Assembly (NCBI RefSeq): GCF_006345805.1
Contig: NC_042998.1
Location: 88,412,001 to 88,476,000 of the forward strand
Length of the DNA stretch: 64,000 nucleotides
From: Octopus sinensis
Taxonomy: Eukaryota
Reading direction: 5' to 3'
Part shown: positions 13,893-58,030 of the stretch, piece after piece
Numbering within the stretch: the stretch's first letter is position 1
Layout: each line of letters opens with the position of its first letter
Notes under the pieces: model-generated
What the model was told of the DNA's origin: nothing
What the model saw: only the letters and a program-made list of their open reading frames with translations
Databases searched by the model: none
Program-made: the position numbers and the translations under genes

Positions 13893-14051
13893 AGTTACTT
13901 ATATGACCGGTCATAGAGTAACCAGTGGTTTCGCATCAATAAATAGAAGACTCGTCAGATGTCCATTGGTGTCTAACGAGTCATCTAATAGGCTAAGCAC
14001 TTTATAGATGCGAAGCCAATGGTCACTCTATGGGCGGTCATATAAGTAACT
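13893..14051. mobile_element. palindromic PLE-derived element with two head-to-head hammerhead motifs
   Basis: The arms are reverse complements; the minus arm reads CTGACGA-stem II-GAAA-CCACTGG-TT and the plus arm CTAACGA-(CATCTA/TAGATG)-GAAG-CCAATGG-TC-ACTCT. Confidence 0.7.
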
Positions 14052-15525
14052 TTATGTAGATATGTGTATATATATATAGAAAGAAAAATAGTAAGAAAGA
14101 AAGGGAAAGAAGAAAAGAAAAAAGGGAAAGAAATATGTGTAAATGTGTAAATGAGCTCATATAATTAAGTGTGGGTATTATGTTTCACAAAACTGTTAAA
14201 GTTCGGTAATATTTTCTCAATCTTTTCAAATAGCTAAATGTTTATTATTTGAAGGCATAGGTCGTTTTCATGACTTCAAATTTAAAACATCTTGATCTAC
14301 TAGAGTATCCGATGAAGGTGAATAGAAACAATACTGCTAATAAGACTCATTCAATAAAATGTAACTTTCATTACAGTTCCATTATAAGCTAGCACTGATA
14401 ACCTATTACAAAAATCATTAAATCACAAGCCTTATGTCACTAGCCTGGCATCAATTTTATAAAATTCTGAAGACCAATATAATTTACAAATTGACATGTA
14501 ACTATGAAAATTATAAACTTGGTAGCTTTAAATAACATTCCATTGAACACTTTCTTGTTGGTTGATCATACATGGACAGTAATGAGCTATTGTGGTACAT
14601 CACATCGCTCAATGTAAAAATAAAACTATTTAGAAAAAACATTATTTGATAATACAACTATCTCATATAAAATAGTTTAAATAACGGATGATTAATTATA
14701 AAATGTATAAAGAAAATAGTTGATTAATTATAAAGCTTCACATAACGTATAACTCGACACAAAGATAGCATGTCCTAATATCAAACTAATACCACACACG
14801 CTATAGCTTAACTATTTCCTTACTGCTGAAAGAACCCTGACGCCAATGGTCAGAAGTCTTGAAGTTCGGTGAGAACGAATGCGAAATAGACACAACATCG
14901 TTCTTACAAACTAATGAGGGAACATCTATGTGGTCCCATATTTGCTAGAAATACTAGTCAAATTGCATTCAAATAACAAACGACCGTATTTTAAATTAAT
15001 ACATTTTAATTAACGTAATCCTAGATACCGAGAAAAAGTGGAATGATCATGGCTAAGGTATCTTTAATAATGGGTCCGTTCGGTCACAATTGATCAAGGA
15101 CTAAACAAAAACATCGTTTGTCCAAGACAATGTGAAAGCTTCTATGTGATAAATTAACCTGCAAGAAATAGCAACCAAATACCTTTCAAATGACATTCTA
15201 CAATCTTAAAAAAAGAGGAGATACATTGTATGATGCAGTCCCAGGTACACCATCCTAGAAAACAGAAGTGGCCACGGCTTGAGTAATAACTACGTCGATA
15301 CTTCCCAGTTACGCTTTCATTTCATGCATACATACAAAGTTACATATATACATATATATGTGTGTGTGTGTGTGTATATATATATATATACATATGTATA
15401 TAGTTTATAGATTAGAGACAGGTATTCTCTATATAGAATACACTTCGTAGTGCTCAAGAGATTTGAACTTCAGCAGGTAGTAAATGTAAGGACAAGCAAG
15501 TTAGGCAAGTCAATATACAAAAAAT

Positions 15526-15740
15526 ATTCTTTTCTATTCTAGGCACAAGGCCCGAAATTTTGGTGGAGGGGGCCAGTCGATTAGATCGACACCAGTGTGC
15601 AACTGGTACTTAGTTTATCGACACAGAAAGGATGAAAGGCAAAGTCGACCTCGGCGGAATTTGAACTCAGAACTTAACGGCAGACGAAATACCGCTACGC
15701 ATTTCGCCCGGCGTGCTAACGTTTCTGCCAGCTCGCCGCC
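15526..15740 (-). mobile_element. tRNA-derived SINE family B with 15-bp TSD
   Basis: Reverse complement of GGCGGCGAGCTGGCAGAAACGTTAGCACGCCGGGCG...GACTTTGCCTTTCATCCTTTC...; flanked by ATATACAAAAAATAT / ATATACACAAAATAT. Confidence 0.85.
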
Positions 15741-15799
15741 ATATACACAAAATATAAAGTACATTTAATACAAAAAATGTGTATATGTATACATATAAA

Positions 15800-53938: not shown

Positions 53939-54073
53939 ATGCCTATCACTTTAGTGGCTTTCTTTGTTTGCCTGGGTTTAGGACTAATCTTCTACAGAAA
54001 ACAGCGCACCGATCTAGCTGGAAAGCTGCGGCAGCCGACTTCAATAAAGAATGAATCAGCGTGTCATTCCTTG
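53939..54073 (+). CDS. possible first coding exon of a membrane-anchored protein (speculative)
   Basis: ACCATG context with an upstream in-frame stop; MPITLVAFFVCLGLGLIFYRKQR... ends at a GTAAGT donor; non-repetitive sequence; no recognised homology. Confidence 0.2.
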
Positions 54074-57000
54074 GTAAGTGTCATGTCGATCAGGAACTGA
54101 CCTGCATTTAAATCATTCTGATTCTGAAAGTGCACAGCAATTTTACTGTTCTCCTGCAGCTTACAGAGATGAGTGGTGCTGTTTCTGTTAATCATTTTGA
54201 GAATAATATTGAAATATACATATTCACTTTACCAAAGAAAGTGCACACGTCAATTTACTATTTCTTGTTATAAATTGTTACACTCAGCAAGAGGTAGTTA
54301 GTGCTGTTTAAATACCACCCATAACTAAAAGCATCAAGACCTGTGGATAGCATGCATTTGCAGCTCTTAAGCTAATAATCAACCGGGTGCCATTTTGCAA
54401 TAAACACAGCTCATTTTCGACTGAGTGAGCTGGAACAATATGAAGTACGTTGCCTAGGGACACAACGTCCGGGGATCGAATCCACTGAAACCTATGACCC
54501 TGAATTAATGAACCCAGCCACCAATTAGTTTCAGTTCTAAACATTGACCGAGTTAACTTTATGTTTCGATTTTTGTAGGATCACTAAAAAAAGTTCCGAG
54601 CATATTCTGGAGTCAGTTGATTGGATTGGTCCTTATTGTATCCATACTTTAAGAACGTGTTTGTCTTGTACGAATATGAGAAATTATTATGAGATGTTGC
54701 AAACGATGAACGAACATACTTGTCATTAAATCATCATCATAATCATCATCACTCTATCATCACCACCACCACTGCCACCTCTGTCATCACAACCATCACT
54801 GCCACAATTATCACTATCATCAACACCATCAACGCCGCTGCTATCATCATCGCCAGAATCACCGTCACTACCATCTCCTACACCCCTTCTAACATTACCA
54901 CGCCACCACAGCAGCAACCACCATCACCACAACCATCACCAACACCACCACCATCATCATCATCAACCTCAATAAAGAGGTCAACAATGTCCGTTGTTCA
55001 TTAGTTTGTATGAGTCAAGTAGGTTTATCGCGGTTTTTTCCTCCCATTAAATGTCATCAAATGGTTACCTGATTGTTTTCGCTTTGTAATTCTTAACGCA
55101 AATACCTTTGACGCATCACTCACAACTGAGCAGTTTTGTATGAGATGCAATGATTTGTGTTTTCATGAATGTTGATTCGACTGATGCAGTAAGCTAGATG
55201 AGTTAACAGTAATTATACTACTATATGTCAATCGTATGTAAGAAAGTCCAGTCAGGGCAACAACAAAACTACTTCAACTATTAATAAAAATGTACGGATT
55301 TTAAGAACAATTTCGATGTATTGCTGACGTGTCAGCAGTATTCATTTCTCATGCTAGAGATTACTATGAGCTACACCCAAAGATTTAGCTGTCATTCGTG
55401 AATAAAGTAATTAAATTTACGAGATACGAAAAGCTTTGTCATGTTTATTATACATGACAAATCCTTTATTGGAAAAGAGGGATCTATCATCTAGACTTCG
55501 CCCTGAGATTGTAGAGTAAGCGTGAAAGCCGTCTATGATTTTCTATGGTGGTGTGAAGAAAGGAAACTTGCGTTCTTGGGCAGTTATGTCAATCTCCCTC
55601 AAAAAGATCTTACCAAGGCCTGCACATACATGTGCACATATACTTTCAGCATTCACTGATGAAGTCTCGCAACGAGTCGATTTCTAATCTATGACTTAAG
55701 TCTTATGAGTTAATCTCTATTTTGTTAGTACCACTGTTCTGTGAGTCTAACTCTCCACTGTAATTCTTCCTCTGCTCTATGAGTCTGCTTCTACACTATC
55801 AATCTACCGTTGTTCTATGAATGTAGCTTAGGTTTGTAACTCTATCTTTATGATACCTCTTCTCCATAAGTCTACGTGTACTTTATGAATATACTTCAAT
55901 CTCTATTCAATAAGTGAACCTCTATTTTATACGTCTATTTCTAATAAGATACTTAGAATGAATGGATAGAGACATCAATGTAAAAAAAGACAAATAAATA
56001 AATTAAATCAAGTATAGTTATTTTTATTCAACTATCTTTATTTTTAAATCAGATAATCTAACTAACATTTGTAATGTATTTCAGTGTATGTTTACCAAAG
56101 AAATATTTGAGTGTATTTGAGTCTTTAAGACTGCCTGTAGTCAATAGTGATTTCTAATATCCCTTTTCTCAGTTTCAAAAGAAAAATTTCCATATTTAAA
56201 GGAAGAGATTTTTGCTTTTCATGAGGTTGGTTTATTGTTTTGTGAGAAATCTGTACTATTTTTCCCCTTGCCACCAAGAATTCATTTTATATTCAGAGCT
56301 CATACTTCCTCTGGGCATAGCATCATATAATTCTTTTTTATACCAACCTTGAAACATTGAAACCTTCTTAAAAACTAATGCAGTAGTATTATCAATACTG
56401 TAGCTTTGTCATCACAAAATCATTTTACATGTTGTCTTCTGCAATCATATCTCTTCAGATGTCCCAGTATTTAATTTCATCGAATTCAATGAGTCCAGTA
56501 CTTAAACACTTCACCATATTTATTTATTCATTCATTTATACATTGCTAGTTATGAGCCATGTCTTATTTTAAGGCTTTTTAACAAAAGAGTATTTTCTGG
56601 CCGCAAAGAAGATGTCTCTGGATACCCAACATTCTTTTGTCAAACCTTACAATGAAGGCATATATGCAATGGATGCTTGAATTATTGGTCCAAGTCGTAA
56701 CTGTGTGTTTGTGCGTGTACATATCTTTAGGAATGTGCATAAATACGCGACAATGTGTGTGCGTGCATGTGTGTGTGTGTGTGTGTGTGTGTGTGTGTGT
56801 GTGTGTGTGCGTGTGTGTGTGTGTGTGTGTGTGTGTGTGTGTGTGTGTACATATTCATTTAACTTCCGACCTTTAATGATATTACTTTGTGTTATCCCGC
56901 CAGTAGACACTTCTAATGGAGATTGCTCTCAGAGATTTTAAACCATACAAACCTCGACACTCTGATAATATCACAAATAATATAGAAGTGTGTTTTTACT

Positions 57001-57803
57001 ATATTTTTTCTTATTATTCGTAAAATATTCTACCCTCCGTTTTTTTTTTTTTTTTAATATTTTTATGACAACACACAGAAGGCTGATCCTCTAGCTTGAC
57101 CCTAGCTATGACAGCTAAGTTTAACTAAACAATTCACACACGCGCACTGGCAGGATTTTTAACCAATGACACTCTAGTAGTTAATTTTATTTTAGTACTT
57201 CTACAACTTTAATATTCATTTAATCAGTGAACCGAGCTTATTACAACTCTAGCGTGGCAATTTTAACAATGCTATATAATTCCAAGCCATTATCAGGTGT
57301 AAGTGATTGAGAAAAATTCTCACTGGAAAAACAAAATATGGCTCTAATGATGCTCTGTTACCTGACGACAATAAACAAATAATTACTTTTTGATAGGATA
57401 ATAAGGTGTAATCAATATGATTCTTAAGAGAGGTGAAATGGCAGAGTTGCTAGAGTGTCGTATGAAATAACTTGCAGTATTTCATTTCAGTCTTTTTTGC
57501 ATTCTGAGTCCATGGACACTTTGCCATTCAACCAGCTCAATTGTATATGTACATATGTAAATACACACACACAGAGAGACACAGACGCGCGCACACACAC
57601 ACACACGCGCGCGCGCGCATATATATATATATATAGGAGAGAGAGAGAGAGAGAGAGAAAGAGAGAGAATGGTAAAAGTATATTTATACATAGATATACG
57701 TTTAATATATATGTATATATAATATATATACATGTACATATATATATACTTTTATATATATATATACTTTTATATATATATATATATATATATATATATA
57801 TAC

Positions 57804-58030
57804 ATATAAGAAATTTAAAAAGGAAAATACGCACACTTACGTAGTTTTAATATAATTTTTAATATATTGACCGGTTTCGCTATCGCTAATCACGAATAGC
57901 GATAGCGAAACCGGTCGATATATTAAAAATATATCAAAACTATGTAAGTGTGCGTATTTTCCTTTTTTAATTTCTTATATACATTACAACTCACCACGTG
58001 GGGGTAATTCCTCTTTTCTGTTACTACTAC
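57804..58030. mobile_element. palindromic PLE-derived element with hammerhead at the centre
   Basis: Arms 57804-57888 and 57897-57980; the right arm has a ~50-bp tail; flanked by (TA)n. Confidence 0.75.
57889..57919 (+). ncRNA. minimal hammerhead motif, A3-U8 variant
   Basis: ATC-ACGAATA-GC-GATA-GC-GAAA-CCGG-TC-GAT; palindromic ACCGGT stem III and GUC triplet. Confidence 0.55.

What the first reader, a model, noticed from the sequence alone, without database searches (positions are those of the whole stretch)
13893..58030. Recurrent ribozyme-centred palindromes: inversion breakpoints fall at the hammerhead core in three families
Three sequence-unrelated short elements (13893-14051, 44055-44255, 57804-58030) share one architecture: two PLE 3' ends joined head-to-head, with the axis in or immediately 5' of the HHR core. 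In the last two, one arm has an extra tail and both flanks are (TA)n, exactly as in the large PLE at 58075-61745. Inverted 5'-truncated PLE ends are known, but clustering of breakpoints at the ribozyme suggests (inference) that RT stalls or switches template at the folded, uncleaved HHR. Alternatively these are a self-propagating MITE-like class. If transcribed they form 60-85 bp dsRNA hairpins, potential ADAR or Dicer substrates.
Basis: partly seen in the sequence, partly recalled or inferred. Interest (0 to 1): 0.78.

Follow-up and report, generated by a model that had tools for sequence, protein, structure and literature searches.

The report
Head-to-head Penelope retroelement insertion stubs
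These three short hairpin-shaped sequences are pairs of tail ends of Penelope-like jumping genes joined head to head, likely built afresh at each insertion by copying from both cut DNA strands; only one of the three families breaks mostly at a fixed point, which lies just upstream of its ribozyme and likely marks where the copied RNA begins.

Summary
The three palindromes are real, and each is made of two 3' ends of an endonuclease-bearing Penelope-like element (PLE), one arm with the tail and one without. The claimed three-family clustering at the hammerhead (HHR) core does not hold. In family C, 5 of 62 sampled copies end near the core; family A ends are spread out. Family B is sharply clustered, but upstream of the core: 42 of 100 arms end 17 to 7 nt before it, with an edge at -17, and only 4 end 3' of the cleavage site. 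That argues against RT stalling at a folded HHR. In B, 47 of 48 pairs carry exactly one tail. The same junctions recur on different subfamilies and in both polarities, so they are likely made anew each time, not amplified as a MITE. Best reading: priming from both target strands at the two RT start sites, with the cDNAs joined at microhomology; -17 is possibly the RNA start (untested). The architecture is published. The scan noted similar structures in other genomes. Editing and transcription could not be tested.

The parts
13825..13892 (-).
   Evidence: matches the tail of other A copies
13893..13969 (-). Family A tailed arm; HHR core CUGACGA at 13958-13952, stem II shortened by a deletion
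   Evidence: family alignment
13963..13969 (.). A axis: native near-palindromic heptamer CCATTGG at -10..-4 relative to core C3, shared by both arms
13963..14051 (+). Family A tailless arm; core decayed (CUAACGA, GAAG)
44054..44124 (-). Family B tail; in full elements it continues into the ORF start
44125..44187 (-). Family B tailed arm; lacks C3-G5 and the 5' strand of stem I, so the ribozyme is incomplete
44188..44250 (+). Family B tailless arm; axis 44187|44188 on a 2-nt AT overlap
57808..57892 (-). Family C tailless arm
57890..57976 (+). Family C tailed arm; native core AUGAAUA (A3-U8 variant) reads ACGAAUA here; predicted cleavage 57916|57917; axis 57892|57893
57977..58030 (+). Family C tail
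58075..61740 (-). Large frameshifted EN+ PLE with the same layout at full size: tail 58075-58111, HHR (U3-A8 core) at 58279, EN and RT frames 58343-60853, inverted tailless arm 61295-61740 on + with its breakpoint inside EN coding sequence

Best explanation
Each element is a miniature Penelope-like insertion made of one tailed and one tailless 3' end joined head to head, likely built anew at every insertion when both cut strands of a (TA)n target prime reverse transcription and the two cDNAs are joined at a few complementary bases. Shown: the arm identities, the one-tail rule, variable junctions on short self-complementary words, and recurrence of junctions across subfamilies. Inferred: one strand primes at the tail end and the other at the inner start site, which is followed by ATAT in B, C and the large PLE and so matches the target. 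[quoted passage not shown] The ribozyme sits near the axis mainly because it lies between the RT start sites and that end, not because it blocks RT.
For: 47 of 48 B pairs with both stem-III motifs carry one tail, none carries two. Among 63 head-to-head joints none has two tails; in 21 the tailless arm reaches further 5' and in 7 the tailed arm is tail only, which fold-back of one tail-first cDNA cannot give. Arms agree at the subfamily site +15 in 40 of 48 pairs (0.42 expected at random); two pairs (L184, L116) differ at both diagnostic sites, which suggests two templates. The window's B junction occurs on two subfamily backgrounds. The -16/-9 junction occurs in both polarities and on two backgrounds. 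B ends: 42 of 100 at -17..-7, 2 at -30..-18; per-base stopping rate 8.6% against 0.85% downstream and 0.93% upstream. Genome-wide exact counts fall from 6425 at -8..+10 to 671 at -33..-15, about 5.5-fold after calibration on 57 long copies. (TA)n joins at -17 at 130 loci with 2 nt of overlap but at about -28 at only 13 loci with 4 or more. Position -17 is the A of an initiator-like CCATTCT (consensus recalled). PMC11167929 reports that a PLE protein cleaves and extends both strands and starts RT at two sites that bound the tail. PMC2377424 reports an internal promoter in Penelope.
Against: No RNA start was observed. Among 69 copies whose tail runs on into the ORF, 30 extend 100 nt or more upstream and only 5 end at -17..-7, 3 of them at -17/-16; a start at -17 predicts more unless tandem formation hides it. 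No extra G marks the -17 junction (0 of 6, 0 of 16). Families A and C show no comparable edge. PMC11167929 saw no strand preference between the two RT start sites in vitro, so the strict one-tail rule is not explained by that paper. One junction type stands at 238 loci, and partial amplification as a unit is not excluded. End positions include microhomology and can be off by several bases.
Confidence: 0.7

Rival explanations
1. RT stalls or switches template at the folded, uncleaved hammerhead, or at a protein-bound or weakly structured site just upstream of it.
For: All three window axes lie in or beside the core; 61 of 100 B arms end within -17..+15; a weak 6-bp AU-rich stem could include -17..-12 (read from the sequence).
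Against: A fold should stop RT at its 3' foot (+30..+41), where 4 of 100 end. The native B region is no more stable than shuffles (87 of 200 fold as well). C has 0 of 62 ends at -17..-7 and 5 at -6..+15.
Confidence: 0.12
2. A self-propagating MITE-like or SINE-like class: one palindromic master is copied as a unit.
For: Identical junctions at many loci: 238 for -16/-9 and 7 for the window's B junction; outer ends are fixed.
Against: The same junctions appear on different subfamilies and in both polarities; dozens of other junctions exist; the outer ends are the PLE's tail and inner start sites and are asymmetric; solo copies share the same 5' ends; C's junction was seen once in 62.
Confidence: 0.08
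3. Fold-back of a single cDNA, or central deletion of longer palindromes after insertion, produced the short symmetric junctions.
For: Window axes sit on native self-complementary words (TCATGA in C, CCATTGG in A); arms usually share subfamily variants; 15 of 63 joints have the tailed arm reaching further 5'.
Against: 28 of 63 joints cannot come from a tail-first fold-back. Solo copies, which cannot undergo palindrome deletion, end at the same positions.
Confidence: 0.07
4. The junctions are assembly artefacts at palindromes.
For: No contig piece from four public runs spans the whole B element.
Against: Contigs from those runs show many inverted joints of the same family and loose ends that match the native upstream bases; arms differ by point changes; element ends are precise.
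Confidence: 0.03

Closest known systems
Insertion units of EN+ Penelope-like elements: pLTR, adjacent inverted 5'-truncated copy, tail at one end (PMC8557442 Fig. 2 legend; passages read)
   Same: Inverted truncated copy next to a direct copy, tail on one end only, microsatellite targets, HHR in the pLTR.
   Different: Here both copies are tiny (60-160 nt). Tails are about 55-70 nt in A, B and C against the 30-40 nt quoted. No junction statistics appear in the passages read.
Minimal type I hammerheads of metazoan PLEs, including dual motifs 100-700 bp apart on opposite strands (PMC4209133, parts 1-2 of 4 read)
   Same: Palindromic minimal stem III, U3-A8 core variant in the large PLE, opposite-strand pairs.
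   Different: The window pairs are closer and their cores are truncated or mutated. C has an A3-U8 core, which the parts read do not mention.
Poseidon PLE of the green anole in vitro (PMC11167929, parts 1-2 of 4 read)
   Same: Both target strands are cut and extended; two RT start sites bound the tail; uncleaved RNA is the template.
   Different: That work found start sites not homologous to the target and no strand preference, and the parts read do not treat head-to-head products. Here the inner site is followed by ATAT, like the target.
L1 twin priming (recalled, not read)
   Same: Two target strands prime on the element RNA and the cDNAs join at microhomology, giving an inversion.
   Different: L1 inversions do not duplicate sequence; here the arms usually overlap, so both cDNAs copy the same stretch.
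Non-LTR retrozymes (bioRxiv 10.64898/2026.07.22.740005, part 1 of 5 read)
   Same: Short non-coding PLE-derived sequences with type I HHRs.
   Different: Retrozymes are head-to-tail tandems with intact ribozymes; these are head-to-head with broken cores.

Membership tests
EN+ Penelope-like element fragment | Arm is the 3' end of an element with RT and C-terminal GIY-YIG endonuclease | tested here: met
   C: EN hits at 57-67% identity directly upstream in long copies. B: RT and EN frame about 1.2 kb upstream in L325/L331, with Atlas neighbours carrying RVT_1 and GIY-YIG in a minority of members. A: EN C-terminus hits in 8 distinct upstream-extended loci, E down to 3e-9. Pfam scores for the window PLE are below cut-off.
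EN+ Penelope-like element fragment | [quoted passage not shown] | tested here: met
   47 of 48 B pairs; all three window elements and the large PLE
EN+ Penelope-like element fragment | Adjacent inverted 5'-truncated copy | tested here: met
Minimal type I hammerhead (family level) | Core C3-U4-G5-A6-N7-G8-A9 or a covariant, GAAA, NUH, stems I-III | tested here: met
   A: 93% of 460 cells paired against 34-47% for slid controls; covariation is modest and the 3' columns were fixed by the search anchor. B and C were read from native copies. No Rfam hit.
Minimal type I hammerhead (window copies) | Intact core and stem I in at least one arm | tested here: not met
   B lacks C3-G5 in both arms; C has U4 changed; A has a shortened stem II in one arm and a broken core in the other
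Hammerhead ribozyme | Self-cleavage | not testable with these tools
   needs an in vitro assay
MITE | Uniform structure amplified from one master | tested here: not met
   many junctions; the same junction on different subfamilies and polarities
MITE | Symmetric termini recognised by a DNA transposase, with a target-site duplication | tested here: inconclusive
   termini are asymmetric PLE ends; duplications cannot be read inside (TA)n; no transposase partner was searched
Non-LTR retrozyme | Head-to-tail tandem units, each with an intact HHR | tested here: not met
   head-to-head layout, broken cores
ADAR or Dicer substrate | Transcribed hairpin with editing or small RNAs | not testable with these tools
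   only assembled contigs were available and RNA status was a guess

The most novel reading that the evidence does not exclude
Family B's thousands of short copies are the genomic record of a Penelope strong-stop step: RT starts at the two tail-bounding sites in the 5' pLTR, one per target strand, runs off the RNA start at -17, and the two cDNAs anneal. This would explain at once the inverted repeat, the one-sided tail and the flood of solo hammerheads in animal genomes, and would let PLE transcription starts be mapped from DNA alone.
Probability: 0.35. Interest if true: 0.65.

Novelty: new member of a known kind. Interest (0 to 1): 0.4.

Why it matters
How PLEs make their tandem and inverted repeats and their one-sided tail is named as an open question in PMC8557442. 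Family B offers thousands of natural products with countable junctions. They favour priming from both target strands and give a single-base prediction (-17) that 5'-end RNA data can test. The elements themselves are dead fragments of a known structure, so the value is mechanistic, not a new class. They also scatter many near-perfect 60-85 bp hairpins through the genome, which would matter for RNA editing if they are transcribed.

Tried and rejected
Rfam: no hit at gathering thresholds. Pfam at E 0.001: 0 families for 5 frames; only sub-threshold RVT_1 and GIY-YIG at E up to 1. PDB sequence search: none. Homolog search with the A EN fragment: none; resolved by tblastn with the B protein. Spliced-template idea: B has a TAG at -13..-11 and a branch-point-like word, recalling the D. 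virilis intron that ends at Helix I, but the predicted spliced join has 0 matches. Cap-derived G at -18: not seen; one search was badly phased and gave 1 match. A boundary at about -141 in B proved to be an internal (TA)n and the end of my reference; the -513 values in C are likewise a break in the reference. The first B search included junction bases and was biased towards the window junction, so statistics use the 3'-anchored sample. Sequencing runs: no RNA holder listed; contigs listed one C>T variant in all four runs and cannot show editing, strand or starts. No host exon was recognised among 14 frames of 150 aa or more, so transcription of the loci is unknown.
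Full report
Setting. The window lies on contig C2 of a 2.72-Gb genome, AT-rich and full of microsatellites. The host was not established; an octopus-like animal is my recollection from genome size and repeat texture. Positions below count from C3 of the hammerhead core (0). I call the elements A (13.9 kb), B (44.1 kb) and C (57.8 kb).

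Observation. All three palindromes are present and fold far better than shuffles (z -13, -25, -17). B has 63-bp arms, a symmetric axis at 44187|44188 and a tail at 44054-44124. C has about 85-bp arms, an axis at 57892|57893 and a tail at 57977-58030. The large element at 58075-61740 has the same layout around a frameshifted RT and GIY-YIG frame. Its inverted arm breaks about 275 nt upstream of its HHR.

What the arms are. In long copies of C, EN coding sequence 57-67% identical to the window PLE lies directly upstream. Long copies of B carry about 1.2 kb of non-coding sequence preceded by an RT plus EN frame, and the B tail runs on into the ORF start in full elements. Long copies of A hit the B endonuclease C-terminus. 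So all three are 3' ends of EN+ PLEs. Each family has a minimal type I hammerhead: A with CUGACGA (93% of 460 cells paired, slid controls 34-47%), B with CUGAUGA or CCGAUGA, C with an A3-U8 core, the large PLE with U3-A8. Rfam finds none. No window arm keeps an intact ribozyme.

For B I took the first 100 of 5252 exact hits to a 19-mer 3' of the ribozyme, which are all hits on C1 up to 63 Mb, and mapped each 5' end. The counts are 11 at -100 or beyond, 12 at -99..-31, 2 at -30..-18, 42 at -17..-7, 19 at -6..+15, 10 at +16..+29 and 4 at +30..+41. Ends 3' of +41 are invisible to this anchor. The stopping rate is 8.6% per base in -17..-7 against about 0.9% on either side. Exhaustive counts agree: 6425 matches at -8..+10 and 671 at -33..-15, a fall of about 5.5-fold after calibrating both patterns on 57 long copies. 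(TA)n joins the element at -17 at 130 loci but at the better overlap near -28 at only 13, so microhomology alone does not make the edge. For C, 62 of 246 anchored copies were mapped: none ends at -17..-7, 5 at -6..+15 including the window copy, 33 at -100 or beyond. By my reading, about 10 of the 62 have a short adjacent inverted arm, and only the window copy joins at the core. For A, 30 of 78 anchored copies spread from -287 to +32, with 7 in -17..+15 and 12 flagged as inverted; these copies are old, so the ends are rough. Clustering is therefore a property of B (B vs C p 3e-12, B vs A p 3e-4), and its peak lies upstream of stem I.

Stall or not. RT reads the RNA 3' to 5', so a blocking fold should leave ends at its 3' foot. 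Only 4 of 100 lie at +30..+41, and the native region folds no better than shuffles. Ribozyme cleavage at +29/+30 does not set the ends either. The edge falls on the A of an initiator-like CCATTCT (consensus recalled), and Penelope has an internal promoter (PMC2377424, passages). I therefore read -17 as the likely 5' end of the template. Against this: of 69 mapped copies (of 92 hits) whose tail continues into the ORF, 30 extend 100 nt or more upstream and only 3 end at -17/-16; no cap-type G was seen; A and C show no such edge. A spliced form was not found. I put this step at about even odds.

Unit amplification or fresh assembly. The window's B junction stands at 7 loci; one of them is on a different subfamily background in both arms. 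The commonest junction (-16 joined to -9) stands at 238 loci; in the sample it occurs with the tail on either arm and on two backgrounds. Of 48 pairs with both stem-III motifs, 47 have one tail and none has two. Of 63 head-to-head joints, 21 have the tailless arm reaching further 5', 15 the tailed arm, 17 are about equal, 7 have a tail-only arm and 3 have no tail. A single tail-first cDNA folding back cannot produce the 21 or the 7. Arms agree at site +15 in 40 of 48 pairs (0.42 by chance), and two pairs differ at both diagnostic sites. Contigs of four public runs show many inverted joints of this family but none spans the whole element.

Mechanism. Established in vitro for an anole PLE: both target strands are cut and extended, RT starts at two sites that bound the tail, and uncleaved RNA serves as template (PMC11167929, parts 1-2 of 4). 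Inferred here: one strand primes at the tail end and the other at the inner site, which is followed by ATAT in B, C and the large PLE. Both cDNAs run towards the RNA 5' end and are joined at 2-7 complementary bases. The window junctions fit this: AT in B, TCATGA in C, CCATTGG in A. Short pairs straddle the ribozyme because it lies only 40-90 nt inside the inner start site. That three short pairs in one window all centre near the core reflects selection by eye for near-perfect palindromes more than a rule.

What is known. The inverted truncated copy, the one-sided tail and microsatellite targeting are described in PMC8557442 (passages), which also lists the origin of these structures as open. 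Opposite-strand pairs of minimal hammerheads 100-700 bp apart are noted in PMC4209133 (parts 1-2 of 4). Retrozymes differ in being head-to-tail (bioRxiv 10.64898/2026.07.22.740005, part 1 of 5). Nine searches (listings and abstract starts only) showed no paper that maps PLE junctions relative to the HHR or applies twin priming to PLEs; most subscription journals are not covered and no supplement was read. The scan holds no notes on this genome but has similar notes on other genomes; I saw them after forming my reading and did not test them.

Verdict. Real, and a new instance of a known PLE insertion structure. The lasting result is the sharp -17 edge and the one-tail rule in family B, which give a direct test of how PLEs build inverted repeats. 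Interest 0.4.

Noticed in passing
window:58030-58075: The tailed end of C and the tailed end of the large PLE face each other across one (TA)n run: two related families inserted into the same microsatellite. Both tails carry a CACGTG word.
   Followed up: partly
L055 (C19), L157 (C1), L072/L310 (C6): Copies of different PLE families sit side by side in one (TA)n tract or within 1 kb (C with B; B with the large-PLE family; A with C), which suggests repeated targeting of the same tracts.
   Followed up: no
L117-L119 (C1, 37.86 Mb): Three head-to-tail copies of a short B unit plus (TA)n, period about 172 nt, probably a local duplication; similar triplets appear (C5 83.78 Mb).
   Followed up: no
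L095 1500-2450, L161, L238, L248: Family B has an unusually long non-coding stretch (about 1.2 kb) between ORF end and ribozyme, with internal (TA)n and polypyrimidine tracts.
   Followed up: partly
family B core, e.g. L137 and L092: Large subfamilies carry CCGAUGA or CCGACGA in place of CUGAUGA, a U4 change that would be expected to weaken cleavage, yet they amplified widely.
   Followed up: no
window:4722-5857, 11103-11591, 62059-63887: Decayed LINE-type reverse transcriptase fragments, judged by motif; Pfam gave no hit for the two frames tested.
   Followed up: no
window:11863-12594, 40596-41713: A roughly 400-730 nt repeat at 93-94% identity in three copies, ending in a trinucleotide-type run; family not identified.
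   Followed up: no
window:51976-52025 and 52161-52210: A 50-bp inverted repeat (92%) about 135 nt apart, not examined.
   Followed up: no
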